Origin: a virus
Taxonomy: Duplodnaviria; Heunggongvirae; Uroviricota; Caudoviricetes
Reading direction: 5' to 3' (one strand)
IMG/VR virus record: IMGVR_UViG_3300029184_000066
Location: 1-5,396 of that record
DNA: 5,396 nucleotides
Part shown: piece after piece, positions 1 through 5,396 of the stretch
Numbering within the stretch: position 1 is the first letter of the stretch
Layout of the letters: the number at the start of each line of letters is the position of its first letter
Made by a program: the position numbers and the translations under genes
The notes under the pieces: generated by a model
The model's input: only the letters and a program-made list of their open reading frames with translations
What the model was told of the DNA's origin: nothing
The model's database searches: none

Positions 1-75
1 CTAAATCGTGCACAGGCTCTGGCGAAGATCGCAGAAATTAAAGCTAAGTTCGGACTGAAAGGAGCAAGTGTATGA
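1..75 (+). CDS. P: Replication protein P (lambda P-like helicase loader), C-terminal 24 codons only; 5' end lies outside the window
   Basis: Frame 1 from position 1 translates to LNRAQALAKIAEIKAKFGLKGASV with a TGA stop at 73-75, matching my recollection of the lambda P C-terminus. The stop overlaps the ren ATG (gtATGa). The ORF track omits it because it has no start in the window. Confidence 0.55.
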   Translation, partial: LNRAQALAKIAEIKAKFGLKGASV

Positions 76-374
76 CGGGCAAAGAGGCAATTATTTATTA
101 CCTGGGGACGCATAAGAGCTTCTGTGCACAGGACGTTGCCGCGGTAACAGGTGCAACCGTAACCAGCATAAATCAGGCTGCGGCTAAAATGGCGCGGGCA
201 GGAATCCTGGTCGTTGATGGTAAGGTCTGGCGAACGGTGTATTACCGGTTCGCTACCAGAGAAGAACGGGAAGGAAAGGTGAGCACGAATCTGATTTTTA
301 AGGAGTGTCGCCAGAGTGCCGCGATGAAACGGGTATTGAGGGTATATAAAAGAACATCAATGGGTACACAATGA
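72..374 (+). CDS. ren: Ren protein (lambda Ren-like, Rex-exclusion resistance), 100 aa, apparently intact
   Basis: The translation MTGKEAIIYYLGTHKSFCAQDVAAVTGATVTSINQAAAKMARAG... closely resembles lambda Ren (96 aa) as I recall it. It sits directly downstream of P as in lambda, with an ATGA start/stop overlap. GC content is near 50%, like the phage backbone. Confidence 0.7.
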   Translation: MTGKEAIIYYLGTHKSFCAQDVAAVTGATVTSINQAAAKMARAGILVVDGKVWRTVYYRFATREEREGKVSTNLIFKECRQSAAMKRVLRVYKRTSMGTQ

Positions 375-391
375 TGAAACAGGTGAGTTGA

Positions 392-426
392 GTTCAAACT
401 GTAGTACAATTCTCTCCAGTTTGAAC
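392..426. repeat. Perfect 10-bp inverted repeat (GTTCAAACTG / CAGTTTGAAC) with a 15-nt spacer, in the ren-emrE intergenic region / emrE leader
   Basis: Direct reading: 392-401 gttcaaactg is the exact reverse complement of 417-426 cagtttgaac. It lies at the transition from ~50% GC phage sequence to AT-rich cargo and 16 nt upstream of the emrE start. No U-tract follows, so it is not a classical intrinsic terminator. Confidence 0.5.
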
Positions 427-441
427 AGGAAAGAATATGTT

Positions 442-774
442 ATGAACCCTTATATTTATCTTGGTGGTGCAATACTTGCAGAGGTCATTGGTACAACCTT
501 AATGAAGTTTTCAGAAGGTTTTACACGGTTATGGCCATCTGTTGGTACAATTATTTGTTATTGTGCATCATTCTGGTTATTAGCTCAGACGCTGGCTTAT
601 ATTCCTACAGGGATTGCTTATGCTATCTGGTCAGGAGTCGGTATTGTCCTGATTAGCTTACTGTCATGGGGACTTTTCGACCAACGGCTGGACCTGCCAG
701 CTATTATAGGCATGATGTTGATTTGTGCCGGTGTGTTGGTTATTAATTTATTGTCACGAAGCACACCACATTAA
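442..774 (+). CDS. emrE: EmrE, small multidrug resistance (SMR) family proton-coupled efflux transporter, 110 aa
   Basis: From the ATG at 442 the translation MNPYIYLGGAILAEVIGTTLMKFSEGFTRLWPSVGTIICYCASFWLLAQTLAYIPTGIAYAIWSGVGIVLISLLSWG...STPH is near-identical to E. coli EmrE as I recall it, including the essential Glu14 (LAEVIG). It has four hydrophobic segments and an AGGAAAG Shine-Dalgarno 8-9 nt upstream. The 128-aa version in the ORF track (start 388) is an upstream in-frame extension. Confidence 0.9.
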   Translation: MNPYIYLGGAILAEVIGTTLMKFSEGFTRLWPSVGTIICYCASFWLLAQTLAYIPTGIAYAIWSGVGIVLISLLSWGLFDQRLDLPAIIGMMLICAGVLVINLLSRSTPH

Positions 775-803
775 AAATAATTTCTTTTAAAAGACTGCAA
801 TAT

Positions 804-837
804 GGCGGTTCATATCTTTACATGGGCCGCTTTTGTT
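804..837 (+). terminator. Candidate rho-independent terminator downstream of emrE
   Basis: The stem 804-813 (ggcggttcat) pairs with 822-831 (atgggccgct) using GC pairs plus G-U wobbles, around an 8-nt loop. It is followed by ttttgtt and further T-runs (831-856), about 30 nt after the emrE stop. Confidence 0.4.
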
Positions 838-1018
838 AATGTTTTTAGTTTTTGTGTATTCTTTTGTGCCTTCAAGATTATTGCGTAAGCAAATTGCAAT
901 ACGATTATTGTTGTATATTCAAGATAGTGTGATCGTAATTGTCTTTTTAAATAAAAATTAAACAAAAATTATATCTCACCACTAAGGTTTATAAAAGCAT
1001 ACGTTAGCAGGTGTCACC

Positions 1019-2545
1019 ATGAAAAAAGCCATAGCATATATGCGATTTTCATCACCAGGTCAGATGTCTGGCGACTCATTAAACCGACAGAGAAGACTTA
1101 TTGCTGAATGGTTAAAGGTAAATAGTGATTATTATCTTGATACCATAACATATGAAGATTTAGGATTAAGTGCATTCAAAGGAAAGCATGCACAATCAGG
1201 AGCTTTTTCGGAATTTTTAGATGCTATAGAGCATGGTTATATATTGCCAGGAACTACATTGTTAGTTGAAAGTCTGGACAGACTTTCAAGAGAAAAAGTC
1301 GGTGAAGCGATTGAACGTCTGAAATTGATTTTGAATCACGGTATTGATGTTATAACTCTTTGCGACAATACAGTCTATAATATTGACTCTTTGAATGAGC
1401 CATATTCATTAATAAAAGCCATACTTATAGCACAAAGGGCAAATGAAGAAAGCGAGATAAAGTCAAGTCGGGTTAAATTATCATGGAAGAAAAAACGGCA
1501 GGATGCACTGGAATCAGGTACGATTATGACGGCGTCTTGTCCGAGATGGCTCTCCTTAGATGACAAAAGAACGGCTTTTGTTCCAGACCCCGACAGGGTG
1601 AAAACTATTGAGCTAATTTTTAAACTCAGGATGGAAAGGCGCTCATTGAATGCAATAGCCAAGTATTTAAATGATCATGCTGTAAAGAATTTCTCAGGAA
1701 AAGAAAGTGCATGGGGGCCTTCTGTAATTGAAAAATTATTAGCGAATAAAGCTCTGATAGGTATATGCGTACCTTCATATCGTGCAAGAGGGAAAGGGAT
1801 AAGTGAAATCGCTGGCTATTATCCCAGAGTCATATCAGATGATTTGTTTTACGCTGTACAGGAAATTCGGTTGGCACCTTTTGGTATTAGCAATAGTAGC
1901 AAGAATCCTATGCTAATAAATCTACTTCGAACAGTTATGAAGTGTGAGGCTTGTGGTAATACCATGATTGTTCATGCGGTATCTGGAAGTTTGCATGGCT
2001 ATTATGTTTGTCCGATGAGAAGATTACATCGATGTGACAGGCCATCAATAAAGAGAGATTTGGTTGATTATAATATCATTAATGAATTGCTTTTTAATTG
2101 TAGCAAAATTCAACCAGTTGAAAACAAGAAAGATGCTAATGAAACTTTAGAGTTAAAAATTATTGAGCTTCAGATGAAAATTAATAATTTAATCGTTGCA
2201 TTGTCTGTCGCGCCTGAAGTTACCGCTATAGCAGAGAAAATAAGACTATTAGATAAGGAATTACGAAGAGCTTTGGTATCATTGAAAACTTTGAAGAGTA
2301 AAGGTGTAAATTCATTCAGTGATTTTTATGCTATTGACTTAACCAGTAAAAATGGACGAGAGTTATGCCGTACACTTGCCTATAAAATATTCGAAAAAAT
2401 CATAATTAATACGGATAATAAAACCTGTGATATCTATTTTATGAATGGCATTGTTTTTAAACACTATCCTTTAATGAAAGTAATATCCGCCCAGCAGGCG
2501 ATAAGTGCTCTCAAATATATGGTTGATGGTGAGGTTTATTTTTGA
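1019..2545 (+). CDS. ybcK: Large serine recombinase (YbcK-like, DLP12-type putative recombinase), 508 aa
   Basis: The N-terminus AIAYMRFSSPGQMSGDSLNRQ carries the serine-recombinase catalytic motif (Y-x-R-x-S...Q) in a resolvase-type domain. The C-terminal half has a Cys-rich zinc-ribbon-like segment (CEACGNTMIVHAVSGSLHGYYVCPMRRLHRCD) followed by a predicted coiled coil (LELKIIELQMKINNLIVALS), the large-serine-recombinase architecture. Length and N-terminus match my recollection of E. coli YbcK (508 aa). The gene is very AT-rich, unlike the flanking phage genes. Confidence 0.85.
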   Translation: MKKAIAYMRFSSPGQMSGDSLNRQRRLIAEWLKVNSDYYLDTITYEDLGLSAFKGKHAQSGAFSEFLDAIEHGYILPGTTLLVESLDRLSREKVGEAIERLKLILNHGIDVITLCDNTVYNIDSLNEPYSLIKAILIAQRANEESEIKSSRVKLSWKKKRQDALESGTIMTASCPRWLSLDDKRTAFVPDPDRVKTIELIFKLRMERRSLNAIAKYLNDHAVKNFSGKESAWGPSVIEKLLANKALIGICVPSYRARGKGISEIAGYYPRVISDDLFYAVQEIRLAPFGISNSSKNPMLINLLRTVMKCEACGNTMIVHAVSGSLHGYYVCPMRRLHRCDRPSIKRDLVDYNIINELLFNCSKIQPVENKKDANETLELKIIELQMKINNLIVALSVAPEVTAIAEKIRLLDKELRRALVSLKTLKSKGVNSFSDFYAIDLTSKNGRELCRTLAYKIFEKIIINTDNKTCDIYFMNGIVFKHYPLMKVISAQQAISALKYMVDGEVYF

Positions 2546-2898
2546 GTAATAATCACTTTTTCAACCGTGCTATGGTATGAAAGTAAAGTAACTACTATGA
2601 TATTAACTATCGAGCAAGAATATCCCCAGGCACTCAACAGGGCGCAGGTCAACGTGAATCGGTCATGACACGACACCGATTTTGCGGAATCAATGTTGCT
2701 TATGAATACAACATCCCGCTTAGTACATGTTCAACACATCAGCAAATTTTGAACTGGGTGTGGCACTTAACTGAAAAAACATGGATGACACAAAATGTTA
2801 CTCGTCGCTTCATTGAAGTAGCTTGTGGATATCACAAGCTAGACTATCGCCAATGATATTCAATTTTTGATTTTTTAGTATCAACCTTCCATAATAAT

Positions 2899-2940
2899 GT
2901 CACCGGAGCTTGAACAACTCCGGTGACTTCTGCGCATTTA
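2899..2940. terminator. Perfect 10-bp stem hairpin (GTCACCGGAG-cttgaacaa-CTCCGGTGAC) followed by TTCTGCGCATTT; candidate tR2-like terminator or boundary element upstream of the nin operon
   Basis: Direct reading: 2899-2908 is the exact reverse complement of 2918-2927, with a 9-nt loop. The stem is GC-rich and the downstream tract only moderately T-rich. It lies at the right edge of the AT-rich cargo and 25 nt upstream of the ylcH-like start. Confidence 0.35.
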
Positions 2941-2951
2941 AGGGGACTTAA

Positions 2952-3050
2952 ATGCGACCACAATCTGAACTCCTTACCTTGTCACAGATGCAGAAATGCA
3001 CCTGCGATTCTTTGCATCCAACGTTTGACCTCTGCGGAGGTGAAGCGTGA
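2952..3050 (+). CDS. ylcH: Small ORF (32 aa, [32 protein letters not shown]), ylcH-like, first gene of the coupled nin operon
   Basis: The ATG at 2952 is preceded by AAGGGGA (2939-2945). Its stop TGA (3048-3050) overlaps the ybcN GTG start (3047-3049) as GTGA, the same 4-nt coupling seen at every downstream junction. Position and size fit DLP12 ylcH (about 33 aa as I recall). It is below the ORF-track length cutoff. Confidence 0.4.
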
Positions 3051-3502
3051 ACCTCCCACAAGACGGCATCAAATTACATCGCGGCAACTTCACCGCTATC
3101 GGTCGGCAGATCCAGCCTTATCTGGAGGATGGCAAATGCTTTCGCATGGTGCTTAAACCGTGGCGCGAGAGACGCAGTCTTTCCCAGAATGCACTCAGCC
3201 ACATGTGGTACAGCGAAATCAGTGAGTACCTCATCAGCAGGGGTAAAACGTTCGCTACTGCAGTATGGGTAAAAGATGCACTCAAACACACATACCTCGG
3301 TTATGAAACCAAGGACCTGGTTGATGTCGTAACCGGCGAAATCACTACGATCCAGTCGTTACGCCATACCTCCGATCTTGATACCGGAGAGATGTATGTC
3401 TTCCTGTGTAAGGTTGAAGCCTGGGCGATGAATATTGGCTGCCACCTGACTATTCCGCAGAGCTGCGAGTTCCAGCTGCTGCGCGACAAGCAGGAGGCGT
3501 AA
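3047..3502 (+). CDS. ybcN: YbcN-like protein (DLP12 ybcN family, reported DNA base-flipping protein; occupies the lambda ninB/orf position), 151 aa
   Basis: The translation [61 protein letters not shown]... matches my recollection of E. coli YbcN (151 aa). It has a GTG start with a strong GGAGG Shine-Dalgarno 6 nt upstream, and its stop overlaps the ninE start (TAATG). Confidence 0.8.
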
Positions 3503-3672
3503 TGGCTACACCGCTTATTCGTGTCATGAGCGGACACATCTACAGAGCACCAAATCGTCGTAAGCGTAAGCCTGAGCTGAAACCATCCGAAATACCAACA
3601 CTGCTCGGATATACCGCCAGCCTGGTTGATAAAAAATGGTTGCGACTGGCAGCAAGGAGGAACCATGGCTGA
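3502..3672 (+). CDS. ninE: NinE family protein, 56 aa
   Basis: This ORF is missing from the ORF track because it is short. Translation from the ATG at 3502 gives [56 protein letters not shown], basic and of the size and position of lambda/DLP12 NinE. It overlaps ybcN by 1 nt and ybcO by 8 nt. Confidence 0.7.
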   Translation: MATPLIRVMSGHIYRAPNRRKRKPELKPSEIPTLLGYTASLVDKKWLRLAARRNHG

Positions 3673-3955
3673 TTTGAGAAAAGCAGCGCGTGGTCGGGAA
3701 TGCCAGGCAAGAATCCCTGGCGTATGTAATGGCAATCCTGAAACGTCTGTACTGGCACATATCCGGCTGGCTGGATTGGGCGGTACCGGTATCAAACCGC
3801 CAGACCTGATTGCCACCATTGCATGTTCTGCCTGTCACGACGAAATCGACCGCCGCACACATTTTGTCGATGCTGAGTATGCAAAAGAATGCGCGCTGGA
3901 AGGTATGGCGAGAACGCAGGTTATCTGGCTGAAAGAGGGGGTAATCAAGGCGTGA
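3665..3955 (+). CDS. ybcO: YbcO-like protein (DLP12 ybcO family, putative metal-binding nuclease), 96 aa
   Basis: I place the start at the ATG at 3665, which has an AGGAGG Shine-Dalgarno 4 nt upstream. The translation [67 protein letters not shown]... has Cys/His residues spaced like a zinc site and matches the 96-aa YbcO of DLP12 as I recall it. The ORF-track version starts 13 codons earlier without a Shine-Dalgarno. Confidence 0.8.
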
Positions 3956-4314
3956 ATACTTACTACATCACACTACCCTGGCCGCCGAGCAATAACCGCT
4001 ACTACCGCCATAATCGCGGGCGCACGCACATCAGCGCAGAGGGGCAGGTATACCGCGATAACGTCGCCCGAATCATCAAAGGCTCCATGCTGGATATCGG
4101 TCTGGCTATGCCAGTGAAAATCCGTATTGAGTGCCACATGCCGGATCGCCGTCGCCGTGACCTGGATAATCTGCAAAAAGCAGCTTTTGACGCACTCACC
4201 AAAGCAGGTTTCTGGCTGGATGATGCTCAGGTCGTTGATTACCGCGTTGTGAAGATGCCCGTTACCAAAGGTGGGAAGCTGGAGCTGACCATCACCGAAC
4301 TGGGGAATGAATGA
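3952..4314 (+). CDS. rusA: RusA Holliday-junction resolvase, 120 aa, GTG start
   Basis: The sequence ...[119 protein letters not shown] is near-identical to E. coli RusA as I recall it, including the acidic catalytic cluster ([14 protein letters not shown]). The GTG at 3952 overlaps the ybcO stop (GTGA) and gives the canonical 120 aa. The upstream ATG at 3889 would add 21 residues that overlap ybcO. Confidence 0.88.
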
Positions 4315-4447
4315 TGTTTGAGTCTTATGTGGCAGAACGTCTTCGCCACCGCTGGATGCGCCTGCGCTTATATCGTTTCCCCGGTTCTGTTTTGACCGAT
4401 TACCGGATACTGAAGAATTACGCCAAAACACTGAAAGGAGCTGCCGC

Positions 4448-4451
<4 letters not shown>
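4311..4451 (+). CDS. ylcG: YlcG-like small protein, 46 aa
   Basis: This ORF is missing from the ORF track because it is short. Translation from the ATG at 4311 gives [46 protein letters not shown]. Both ends are coupled by ATGA overlaps, to the rusA stop and to the next ORF's start. Size and position match DLP12 ylcG. Confidence 0.6.

Positions 4452-5396
<945 letters not shown>

What the first reader, a model, noticed from the sequence alone, without database searches (positions are those of the whole stretch)
1019..2545. Uncharacterised large serine recombinase with zinc-ribbon and coiled-coil C-terminus; substrate unknown
The protein has the full architecture of phage-integrase or transposase-type large serine recombinases (catalytic Ser motif RFSSPGQ, recombinase domain, Cys-rich ribbon, coiled coil). 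Yet it sits in the middle of a prophage early region, far from any phage att site, next to an efflux gene. It is also lower in GC than any other gene in the window. What DNA it recombines is an open question.
Basis: partly seen in the sequence, partly recalled or inferred. Interest (0 to 1): 0.5.

Follow-up and report, generated by a model that had tools for sequence, protein, structure and literature searches.

The report
ybcK: orphaned serine recombinase cassette
This gene is ybcK, a known but never characterised DNA-cutting-and-joining enzyme carried by many E. coli lambda-like prophages; comparison with related genomes suggests it once moved its own 2-kb gene cassette in and out of a site at the end of the neighbouring emrE gene, a site that is only half preserved here.

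Summary
Window 1019-2545 is ybcK, a 508-aa large serine recombinase. The catalytic residues R9/S11/D87/R88/R91 and four zinc-ribbon cysteines are invariant. The predicted fold matches the SPbeta, PhiC31 and Bxb1 integrases. At 35.6% GC it is the lowest-GC gene in the window. It is annotated but functionally unknown. It occurs in 1424 of 5426 complete E. coli genomes, and every one of the 1398 near-full-length copies follows emrE in the nin region. The lambdoid phages that carry it have their own tyrosine integrase and excisionase, so it is not the phage integrase. dN/dS is about 0.07.

One allele has ylcJ-ybcK (2073 bp) flanked by a roughly 40-nt imperfect direct repeat. Its 15-nt identical, palindrome-centred core overlaps the emrE stop codon. 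Six otherwise syntenic loci lack exactly this segment and keep one repeat copy. In other genera, four of 25 loci have an LSR-containing segment flanked by duplicated gene fragments.

My best reading (confidence about 0.45) is that YbcK integrates and excises its own small cassette at the 3' end of emrE. This window keeps the left site (766-805) but has lost the right one. Ordinary phage mosaicism remains a serious rival. No recombination was demonstrated.

The parts
442..774 (+). emrE, an SMR efflux gene. Its last two codons and stop codon lie inside the proposed attachment core. It is the proposed target gene, not part of the cassette.
   Evidence: Pfam Multi_Drug_Res, E=2.6e-35. Annotated emrE in matching genomes. 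All 1398 near-full-length ybcK copies are preceded by it.
766..805 (.). Left junction repeat (attL-like, DR-L). The identity core CATTAAAAATAATTT is at 769-783. An imperfect palindrome, TTAAAAATAA-T-TTCTTTTAAA (8 of 10 arm positions complementary by my own reading of the sequence), is at 771-791.
   Evidence: It corresponds to L009 5737-5776, which matches 33/40 with a second copy at L009 7810-7849 downstream of ybcK. Empty-site alleles join the left part of one copy to the right part of the other. Homology to emrE-only loci stops at window 781-782. In L009 the palindrome is perfect (10-1-10), against 0.1 expected per 2.5 kb.
804..831 (+). Intrinsic-terminator-like hairpin directly after the junction. 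It would terminate emrE transcription.
   Evidence: Terminator scan: 10-pair stem followed by a T run. The K-12 allele keeps a hairpin here with different stem bases.
839..961 (+). ylcJ-like small ORF of 40 aa, function unknown.
   Evidence: Annotated as a hypothetical CDS in O157 and as ylcJ in K-12. Pfam YlcJ is recorded on a related contig. It is 71-76% identical across alleles.
775..1018 (+). ybcK leader, 29.5% GC. This untranslated region is reported to hold a Rho/NusG-dependent terminator in K-12.
   Evidence: GC. PMC4150792 as read.
1019..2545 (+). ybcK, a large serine recombinase. Catalytic domain about 1-165, recombinase domain about 190-285, zinc ribbon 302-357, coiled coil about 368-426, clade-specific C-terminal alpha/beta domain about 444-508.
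   Evidence: dN/dS 0.06-0.08 for the well-diverged allele pairs.
2546..2611 (.). Conserved 66-nt 3' flank of ybcK, shared at 86-100% identity with the other allele types except the K-12 type. It is all that remains here of the right part of the cassette.
2612..2890 (.). Filler scarred by deletions, in the place where other alleles carry a P22AR-C gene and cargo. It includes ORF63 (2665-2856). No right-hand repeat is present.
   Evidence: The window equals the 1395-nt variant L123 minus two internal segments, with junctions at about 2611 and about 2690. No DR-R-like sequence is found. ORF63 matches phrog_2559.

Best explanation
ybcK encodes an intact large serine recombinase that is not the integrase of the phage carrying it. 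I propose that it is the integrase/excisionase of its own small cassette. The cassette is about 2.07 kb: terminator, ylcJ, ybcK and a short 3' tail. Its attachment site is a roughly 40-nt sequence whose 15-nt core (CATTAAAAATAATTT) overlaps the stop codon of the phage-borne emrE gene. Integration would put one hybrid site 235 nt upstream of ybcK and a second downstream of it. emrE stays intact, and the cassette supplies a replacement terminator. This resembles the way Ccr recombinases place SCC elements at the 3' end of rlmH (my own knowledge, not tested here). In this window only the left hybrid site survives (766-805). The right end was removed by deletions beyond 2611, so the cassette cannot excise in cis and YbcK is an orphan enzyme. 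The prophage is also crippled by an IS30 in Q. Shown: the protein's integrity and fold, its fixed position, strong purifying selection, the presence/absence polymorphism with a flanking direct repeat, and the palindromic core. Inferred: that YbcK catalysed that polymorphism. Also inferred from gene position alone: that it is expressed mainly when antiterminated early-right transcription reads through the leader.
For: (1) The enzyme is intact. Catalytic and zinc-ribbon residues are invariant. The profile matches SPbeta SprA, A118 and TP901-1 integrases. The fold matches SPbeta, PhiC31 and Bxb1. dN/dS is about 0.07. (2) It is not the phage integrase. Isolated phages that carry it have a tyrosine Int and Xis. 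(3) In the hydrolase-type allele (L009, Perceval, 4C10; 172 genomes), 2073 bp containing only ylcJ and ybcK is flanked by a direct repeat matching 33/40, with a 15-nt identical core. (4) Two complete genomes and four IMG/VR contigs have the same synteny, ren-emrE-hydrolase-ybcN, without that segment and with a single repeat copy. That copy is the left part of DR-L joined to the right part of DR-R. (5) The core is the centre of a perfect 10-1-10 palindrome in L009, against 0.1 expected per 2.5 kb. (6) Family pattern: in four of 25 non-E. coli loci an LSR-containing segment of 3-7 kb is flanked by direct duplications of a gene fragment of 110-384 nt. The duplicated genes are DUF1367, a gene that looks like replication protein P (my reading of the translation; no family search was run), a pilV-like gene, and a small gene I did not identify. 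In three of the four (L106, L031, L098) one copy is intact and the other is a displaced fragment; L032 does not fit this geometry cleanly. Four of the seven direct repeats of at least 80 nt found in 508 kb flank the LSR. In L106 and L031 the junction lies 150-300 nt upstream of the LSR start, as it does in E. coli. (7) Between genera, homology is often confined to the LSR gene plus short flanks, as expected for a portable module.
Against: The arm to the left of DR-R (GGTCACGCCCCC) can be aligned to a P22AR-C ORF found in other alleles. The right junction could therefore be an illegitimate join between a P22AR-C gene and the end of a second emrE. In that case the two repeat arms would simply be orthologous emrE 3' flanks. 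Most alleles, including the window, K-12, NCTC9100 and Turner types, have no right repeat. The K-12 insert has an unrelated right end. No circle junction (attP) was found in IMG/VR or JGI metagenome contigs. No dyad with 22-nt half-sites stands above shuffled controls. Every full-length ybcK sits at one site only, so no independent insertion events were observed. A single historical insertion would also give the shared left boundary. Strong purifying selection in lineages that have lost one site is not expected if the only role is self-mobility.
Confidence: 0.45

Rival explanations
1. YbcK is an accessory (moron-type) recombinase kept by the phage or host for a role in trans, unrelated to moving its own cassette. 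One possibility is a second recombination route between the emrE-end site and similar sites elsewhere, such as the chromosomal emrE copy at fliE-yedK. Another is a stress-related role that does not involve recombination.
For: dN/dS is about 0.07 even among alleles that lack the right repeat. The gene is full length in 1398 of 1424 carrier genomes and is present in plaque-forming phages. An attB-like emrE end exists at a second chromosomal locus in many genomes. Overexpression of ybcK raised sabinene tolerance and deletion lowered it (PMC7181518). Homologues in other genera lie among SOS/stress morons: umuD'-like, umuC-like, DinI and KGG genes.
Against: No second substrate was identified. No rearrangement with an endpoint at ybcK is seen in about 1400 genomes. 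PADLOC gives no defence-system match. The tolerance phenotype has no mechanism and comes from a single study.
Confidence: 0.22
2. YbcK currently has no substrate. The presence/absence and cargo differences around it are ordinary lambdoid mosaicism, produced by homologous and illegitimate recombination and by deletions. The flanking repeat is an accident of joining two emrE-bearing phages.
For: The ybcK-ybcN interval exists in at least 10 length variants with scattered breakpoints at +9, +66, +212-239 and +400-490 nt after the stop codon. Random deletions and IS hits occur. The left arm of DR-R looks P22AR-derived. The 5' leader is silenced by Rho (PMC4150792).
Against: A relic should not show dN/dS of 0.07 with invariant catalytic residues. 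The junction falls exactly on a 15-nt identity block with a palindromic centre. The same signature of a duplication flanking an LSR recurs in four unrelated loci.
Confidence: 0.25
3. YbcK is a DNA invertase that flips a nearby segment as a genetic switch, in the manner of Pin, Gin or Hin.
For: It belongs to the serine recombinase superfamily, and phrog_125 'DNA invertase' gives a weak secondary hit. Several homologues lie next to tail-fibre and tail-fibre-assembly genes.
Against: It is 508 aa with recombinase, zinc-ribbon and coiled-coil domains, not about 190 aa with a C-terminal HTH. The best inverted repeat flanking it is only 71% complementary over 28 AT-rich nt. No dyads stand above chance. 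All about 1400 copies are collinear with no inverted arrangement. The tail-fibre neighbours in other genera are all on one strand, with no inverted alternative gene segments.
Confidence: 0.03

Closest known systems
Phage-type large serine integrases (SPbeta SprA, Listeria A118/LI Int, PhiC31 Int, Bxb1 Int, TP901-1 Int)
   Same: The domain order is the same: catalytic domain, recombinase domain, zinc ribbon and embedded coiled coil. The catalytic Ser/Arg set is conserved. These are the best sequence-profile and fold matches, and the top PHROG is phrog_95 'integrase'.
   Different: ybcK is not at a prophage end and is not the phage's integrase, because a tyrosine Int and Xis do that job. Sequence identity to solved integrases is only 14-23%. 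It has an extra C-terminal domain of about 65 aa that is specific to the enterobacterial clade. No recombination directionality factor was identified.
Ccr recombinases of staphylococcal SCC elements (my own knowledge; not compared by sequence here)
   Same: In both cases a large serine recombinase would insert an element at the extreme 3' end of a gene. The ORF stays intact and the element is flanked by imperfect direct repeats of about 15 nt or more that include the stop codon.
   Different: The proposed ybcK cassette is about 2 kb with no cargo other than ylcJ, whereas SCC elements are 20-60 kb. Its target gene is itself phage-borne. Excision and integration have not been shown.
TnpX/TndX 'large resolvase' transposases of Tn4451 and Tn5397 (my own knowledge)
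   Same: These are serine recombinases that excise their own element as a circle and reinsert it at sites resembling the joint. attP-like and attB-like sites are similar to each other, and no separate directionality factor is needed.
   Different: No circular form, GA-type crossover dinucleotide or multiple target sites were observed for ybcK.
Helper-embedded PICIs, genomic islands nested inside prophage genes (PMC10111431)
   Same: Both involve a small integrative element embedded within a lambdoid prophage. When the target is inside a gene, the att identity blocks can extend to hundreds of bp. The 110-384-nt duplications around YbcK homologues behave the same way.
   Different: Those elements use tyrosine integrases, are about 11 kb satellites with capsid genes, and interrupt late genes. 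The ybcK cassette has a serine recombinase, no packaging functions, and lies in the early-right region.
Small serine invertases of E. coli cryptic prophages (PinE, PinQ, PinR) and Gin/Hin
   Same: They share the catalytic-domain superfamily and are also carried by prophages.
   Different: Their size and C-terminal architecture differ. ybcK has no inverted sites and no invertible segment.

Membership tests
Large serine recombinase (LSR) family | N-terminal resolvase-type catalytic domain with the nucleophilic Ser and the conserved Arg/Asp set | tested here: met
   Pfam Resolvase, E=5e-19. R9, S11, Q15, D87, R88 and R91 are invariant in 38 homologues.
Large serine recombinase (LSR) family | Recombinase domain followed by a zinc-ribbon domain with four Cys | tested here: met
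   Pfam Recombinase, 2e-14, and Zn_ribbon_recom, 8e-8. C309, C312, C331 and C339 are invariant. The profile aligns to the A118 and SPbeta integrases across these domains.
Large serine recombinase (LSR) family | Coiled-coil motif inserted in the zinc-ribbon domain | tested here: met
   The AlphaFold2 model has helices 368-397 and 401-426. Full-length Foldseek matches to the SPbeta, PhiC31 and Bxb1 integrases have E from 5e-19 to 2e-12. This is a prediction only.
Large serine recombinase (LSR) family | Attachment sites of about 40-50 bp with dyad symmetry around a central crossover dinucleotide | tested here: inconclusive
   The candidate site has a 15-nt identity core and a 10-1-10 palindrome that is perfect in L009; in the window I count 8 of 10 arm positions complementary. 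Half-sites of 22 nt are not more symmetric than shuffled controls. The crossover position is unknown.
Primary prophage serine integrase | It is the only integrase of the phage and lies next to attP, so at one end of the prophage | tested here: not met
   ybcK lies between ren/emrE and ybcN. The phages carry a tyrosine Int and Xis at the prophage end.
Self-integrating LSR cassette (SCC/Ccr-like or TnpX-like element) | Element bounded by direct repeats, with empty-site alleles that carry a single repeat copy | tested here: met
   This is met for the hydrolase-type allele only. The 2073-bp segment has a 33/40 repeat and there are six empty-site loci. The window itself lacks the right repeat.
Self-integrating LSR cassette (SCC/Ccr-like or TnpX-like element) | Excised circular intermediate (attP junction), or copies at more than one target | tested here: not met
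   The predicted attP sequence has no hits in IMG/VR or JGI metagenome contigs. All 1398 near-full-length copies sit at the same site. Assembled contigs are a weak test for circles.
Self-integrating LSR cassette (SCC/Ccr-like or TnpX-like element) | Recombinase-dependent excision and integration | not testable with these tools
   This needs an in vivo or in vitro recombination assay.
Small serine DNA invertases (Hin/Gin/Pin) | Protein of about 190 aa with a C-terminal HTH, acting on inverted sites that flank an invertible segment | tested here: not met
   The protein is 508 aa with recombinase and zinc-ribbon domains. There are no significant inverted repeats. No inverted arrangements occur among about 1400 copies.
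XisF-type developmental excision recombinase (NCBIfam NF041201) | Score above the equivalog cut-off | tested here: not met
   46.9 bits against a cut-off of 375.
Known anti-phage defence systems (PADLOC) | Match to any PADLOC model | tested here: not met
   No hits.

The most novel reading that the evidence does not exclude
YbcK-family recombinases define a class of minimal (about 2-7 kb) serine-recombinase cassettes that live inside temperate phages and conjugative or mobilisable elements of Enterobacterales. They would insert into or at the end of the carrier's own genes (emrE 3' end, DUF1367, a gene resembling replication protein P, pilV-like) while restoring the target with a carried copy of the gene end. 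In doing so they would ferry accessory genes such as DinI and KGG. That would be a site-specific mechanism for how phage genomes acquire and exchange morons. In E. coli the enzyme may still recombine emrE-end sites between co-resident prophages and the chromosomal fliE-yedK emrE locus.
Probability: 0.3. Interest if true: 0.7.

Novelty: new member of a known kind. Interest (0 to 1): 0.42.

Why it matters
ybcK is one of the remaining genes of unknown function in E. coli K-12, and it is carried by about a quarter of complete E. coli genomes, including O157:H7 and LF82. The gene and its family assignment are not new. What this analysis adds is a concrete, testable substrate: a roughly 40-nt site overlapping the emrE stop codon, with predicted attL, attR, attB and attP sequences and natural occupied and empty alleles. 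If the prediction holds, it would be an unusually small serine-recombinase element nested inside lambdoid phages. It would also give a site-specific explanation for part of the gene shuffling in the phage nin region, and a compact new integrase with about 40-bp sites for engineering use. If it fails, ybcK is an ordinary conserved accessory gene whose role lies elsewhere.

Tried and rejected
1. Single-sequence phmmer against PDB found nothing. The profile search and the fold search both succeeded.
2. Nothing stood above shuffled controls.
3. PADLOC gave no defence-system hit. NCBIfam gave only a sub-threshold XisF match.
4. I looked for a flanking motif conserved across genera, using 160 nt upstream and 130 nt downstream of 23 homologues. 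None was found. A TGTTCA-N5-TGAACA palindrome upstream of the Ewingella genes is clade-specific.
5. A ren-to-ybcN 'empty site' within 800 bp does not exist in the E. coli collection.
6. Neither the window, K-12, NCTC9100 nor Turner allele has a right-hand repeat.
7. An exact search for the predicted circle junction found nothing in IMG/VR or JGI metagenomes.
8. I tested whether the emrE or ren sequences of occupied and empty alleles reveal the parental background. With only 2-6 differences in emrE, this was uninformative.
9. I tested whether L016 is an independent insertion of the L106 element. It is not: the right side is the same and the left flank has been replaced 29 nt inside the element.
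10. A 2.9-kb ENA contig carrying a ybcK variant turned out to be a linear fragment, not a circle.
11. H65, a '150-nt ybcK-like' hit, is only a deletion derivative.
12. I rejected the idea that ybcK is the prophage integrase in loci where it lies at a prophage end (L003, L094, L096, L105). This could not be tested because the far ends of those prophages lie outside the fetched flanks.
Full report
IDENTITY AND OBSERVATION

The window is the early-right (nin) region of a DLP12-type lambdoid prophage of E. coli. The gene order is ren (72-374), emrE (442-774), ybcK (1019-2545), ybcN (3047-3502), ninE, ybcO, rusA, ylcG and a Q antiterminator gene. Positions 1-4962 are 98.2% identical to O157:H7 prophages integrated next to icd. 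The ybcK DNA is 100% identical in many O157:H7 genomes and 99.5% identical to K-12 ybcK.

RFSSPGQ is residues 9-15. GC is 35.6%, the lowest of any gene in the window.

IS THE ENZYME INTACT?

I aligned YbcK with 37 homologues ranging from 97% down to 28% identity. R9, S11, Q15, D87, R88 and R91 are invariant, as are C309, C312, C331 and C339. A single-sequence search against PDB sequences found nothing. The family profile matched SPbeta SprA (E=1e-18), the A118 integrase C-terminal region (2.5e-15), the TP901-1 catalytic domain and PhiC31 integrase.

An AlphaFold2 model (pLDDT 81.9) shows four parts: the catalytic domain with its long E-helix, the recombinase domain, a beta-ribbon, and a helical hairpin at 368-426. 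A further alpha/beta domain follows at 444-508. Foldseek places the SPbeta, PhiC31 and Bxb1 integrases on top, with E from 5e-19 to 2e-12. Among seven E. coli and phage alleles, dN/dS is 0.06-0.08 for the well-diverged pairs.

Neither is met.

WHAT IS ALREADY KNOWN

RefSeq annotates the gene as 'ybcK: recombinase family protein'. Phage Perceval annotates it as 'Large serine recombinase'. The literature held here reports three things and no recombination substrate:
- a domain-level match to B. subtilis CisA (PMC6637259);
- a Rho/NusG-dependent terminator in the ybcK leader that keeps it silent (PMC4150792);
- a sabinene-tolerance phenotype on overexpression or deletion (PMC7181518).

DISTRIBUTION AND CONTEXT

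ybcK is present in 1424 of 5426 complete E. coli genomes. All 1398 near-full-length copies lie in the same block, emrE-ylcJ-ybcK. It is also found in isolated lambdoid phages (Perceval, 4C10, 4A7, D2, Turner, PhiR34_1 and others). Perceval has its own tyrosine integrase and excisionase about 10 kb away, and so do the prophages I opened. YbcK is therefore not the phage integrase.

The interval between ybcK and ybcN is highly variable. It is 501 nt in this window. Other alleles carry ybcL-ybcM (K-12), an alpha/beta hydrolase on the other strand (NRG857C, LF82 Perceval), a P22AR-C gene plus other ORFs (NCTC9100, Turner), and more. There are at least 10 length classes among 80 IMG/VR loci.

The breakpoints are scattered. 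This window's version is a 1395-nt variant that has lost two internal pieces, with scars at about 2611 and about 2690.

THE PRESENCE/ABSENCE POLYMORPHISM

In the hydrolase-type allele (L009), a 40-nt sequence begins in the last codons of emrE. It recurs 283 nt downstream of the ybcK stop codon (L009 7810-7849). The two copies match at 33 of 40 positions and share an identical 15-nt block, CATTAAAAATAATTT.

From this I built the predicted empty junction and searched for it. Two complete genomes (F467 and Rb-50, which have different immunity regions) contain it as one uninterrupted match at 98.5-98.8% identity. Four IMG/VR contigs contain the exact junction as well. All six have ren-emrE-hydrolase-ybcN and no ybcK.

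The single repeat copy in these loci equals the left part of the upstream copy joined to the right part of the downstream copy. The missing segment is 2073 bp and holds a terminator hairpin, ylcJ, ybcK and a short tail.

In L009 the identity block is the centre of a perfect 10-1-10 palindrome, TTAAAAATAA-T-TTATTTTTAA. Shuffled sequences give 0.1 such palindromes per 2.5 kb.

A second comparison agrees on the left boundary. Many genomes carry a chromosomal emrE-ybcL-ybcM block between fliE and yedK that has no ybcK. Relative to this block, the K-12 allele carries an extra 2082 bp that begins at the same point, directly after AATAATT.

THE FAMILY PATTERN

Homologues of 40-61% identity and about 506-515 aa occur in Atlantibacter, Yersinia, Erwinia, Ewingella, Pantoea, Citrobacter and Kluyvera. 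They are found in three kinds of place:
- at the tail-fibre end of prophages with quite different tail types;
- in the replication-to-Q interval of lambdoid prophages, which is the position seen here;
- on a mobilisable element and on plasmids.

Between related loci, nucleotide homology is often limited to the recombinase gene plus tens to hundreds of flanking bases.

In four of 25 non-E. coli loci, the LSR-containing segment (3-7 kb) is flanked by a direct duplication of a gene fragment:
- L106: the first 60 codons of a DUF1367 gene, 200 nt at 85% identity;
- L031: the 3' part of a gene that looks like replication protein P (my reading of the translation), about 380 nt at 76%;
- L098: the N-terminal part of a pilV-like gene;
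- L032: the 5' part of a small gene that I did not identify.

In L106, L031 and L098 one copy is an intact gene and the other is a displaced fragment. This is the pattern left by an element that integrates inside a gene while carrying a replacement for the gene end. L032 does not fit this geometry cleanly. Of seven direct repeats of at least 80 nt found in 508 kb of these loci, four flank the recombinase.

In L106 and L031 the junction lies 150-300 nt upstream of the recombinase start. In E. coli it lies 235 nt upstream.

INTERPRETATION

The most economical reading is that YbcK-family enzymes integrate and excise small cassettes that ride inside phages and other mobile elements. On this reading the E. 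coli cassette targets the 3' end of emrE.

In this window the left hybrid site is present at 766-805, and the palindrome arms match at 8 of 10 positions by my own reading of the sequence. The right end of the cassette is gone. Here the enzyme is therefore an orphan inside a prophage that is itself disabled by an IS30 in Q.

One further inference rests on gene position alone. ybcK lies in the early-right operon, behind a terminator and a Rho-dependent leader. It would then be made mainly when antiterminated transcription reads through after induction.

WHY CONFIDENCE IS ONLY ABOUT 0.45

- The bases left of the downstream repeat can be aligned to the P22AR-C ORF of other alleles. That junction could be an illegitimate join between two emrE-bearing phages, with the repeat arms being orthologous emrE 3' flanks.
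- Only one allele type (172 genomes) has both repeats.
- The K-12 right end is unrelated to it.
- The shared left boundary needs only a single historical insertion.
- The predicted circle junction was not found in two contig collections.
- Long half-site symmetry is absent.
- Purifying selection persists in alleles that could not excise. This points to some additional or different role.
- No experiment on recombination exists.

The inversion hypothesis is effectively excluded.

COMPARISON WITH KNOWN SYSTEMS

By sequence, domains and fold, YbcK is a member of the large serine recombinase family. It is not a primary prophage integrase, a small invertase, an XisF equivalog or a known defence component.

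Functionally, the proposal most resembles two known kinds of element: SCC/Ccr insertion at the 3' end of rlmH, and TnpX/TndX-type self-excising elements (both from my own knowledge). In concept it also resembles the tyrosine-integrase islands nested in prophage genes (PMC10111431).

VERDICT

The gene is known and annotated and belongs to a known kind. A specific substrate hypothesis is now available and can be tested directly.

Noticed in passing
window 4963-5396: Homology to O157 prophages stops at 4962, inside the Q antiterminator gene. The remaining sequence is 99.8-100% identical to ends of IS30, so Q is truncated and the prophage is probably defective for late transcription. The Rfam isrC hit at 5031-5153 lies inside the IS30 sequence.
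   Followed up: partly
L012 5061-6920 and L013 5061-6920 (E. coli chromosome between fliE and yedK): Many E. coli genomes carry a second emrE (92% identical) followed directly by ybcL and ybcM, and in L012 an ompC/nmpC-like porin. There are no ybcK and no nin genes. It looks like a remnant of a DLP12-type prophage, and it carries an attB-like emrE end.
   Followed up: partly
window 2546-3046: The ybcK-ybcN spacer is a doubly deleted derivative of a 1395-nt variant (L123). Segments 2546-2611, 2609-2690 and 2689-3046 correspond to 1-66, 295-376 and 1038-1395 of that variant. The 63-aa ORF at 2665-2856 (phrog_2559) spans the second scar.
   Followed up: yes
window 1267-1288: A perfect palindrome, TGAAAGTCTGGACAGACTTTCA, lies inside ybcK exactly over the codons for the catalytic ESLDRLS motif. 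It is conserved in L009. It is probably a by-product of codon choice, but it is the only other perfect 9+9 palindrome in the low-GC block.
   Followed up: no
window 2899-2927: A 12-pair hairpin (GTCACCGGAGCTTGAACAACTCCGGTGAC) lies at the conserved right edge of the variable ybcK-ybcN interval, just upstream of the small ylcH-like ORF and ybcN.
   Followed up: no
L003 9092-9684; L096 9212-9845; L094 12207-12772; L103; L105; L106: YbcK homologues in other genera repeatedly sit beside a conserved gene pair: an 80-aa protein and a UmuD'-like protein that begins MGFPSPAADY. They also sit beside UmuC-like (IMS), DinI and KGG genes. This places them in the SOS/stress accessory zone of prophages.
   Followed up: partly
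H1-H8, H156 (E. coli genomes); L193 7001-7156; L186 and L141: ybcK and its downstream spacer are occasional targets of IS1203, IS1 and a 1333-bp insertion that I take to be an IS element. One genome has a deletion that fuses ybcK codon 50 to the ybcN upstream region. These are ordinary decay events, distinct from the clean empty-site alleles.
   Followed up: partly
L002 10700-10760 (K-12, downstream of ybcK): The K-12-specific 300-nt segment between ybcK and ybcL contains a 13-bp perfect inverted repeat, AAAATACGTGACA...TGTCACGTATTTT. The GTCACG motif also occurs at the emrE end and next to the downstream repeat in L009.
   Followed up: no
L032 11740-13876: A 1251-bp tandem duplication with identical ORF pairs lies downstream of the Pantoea coffeiphila YbcK homologue.
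   Followed up: no
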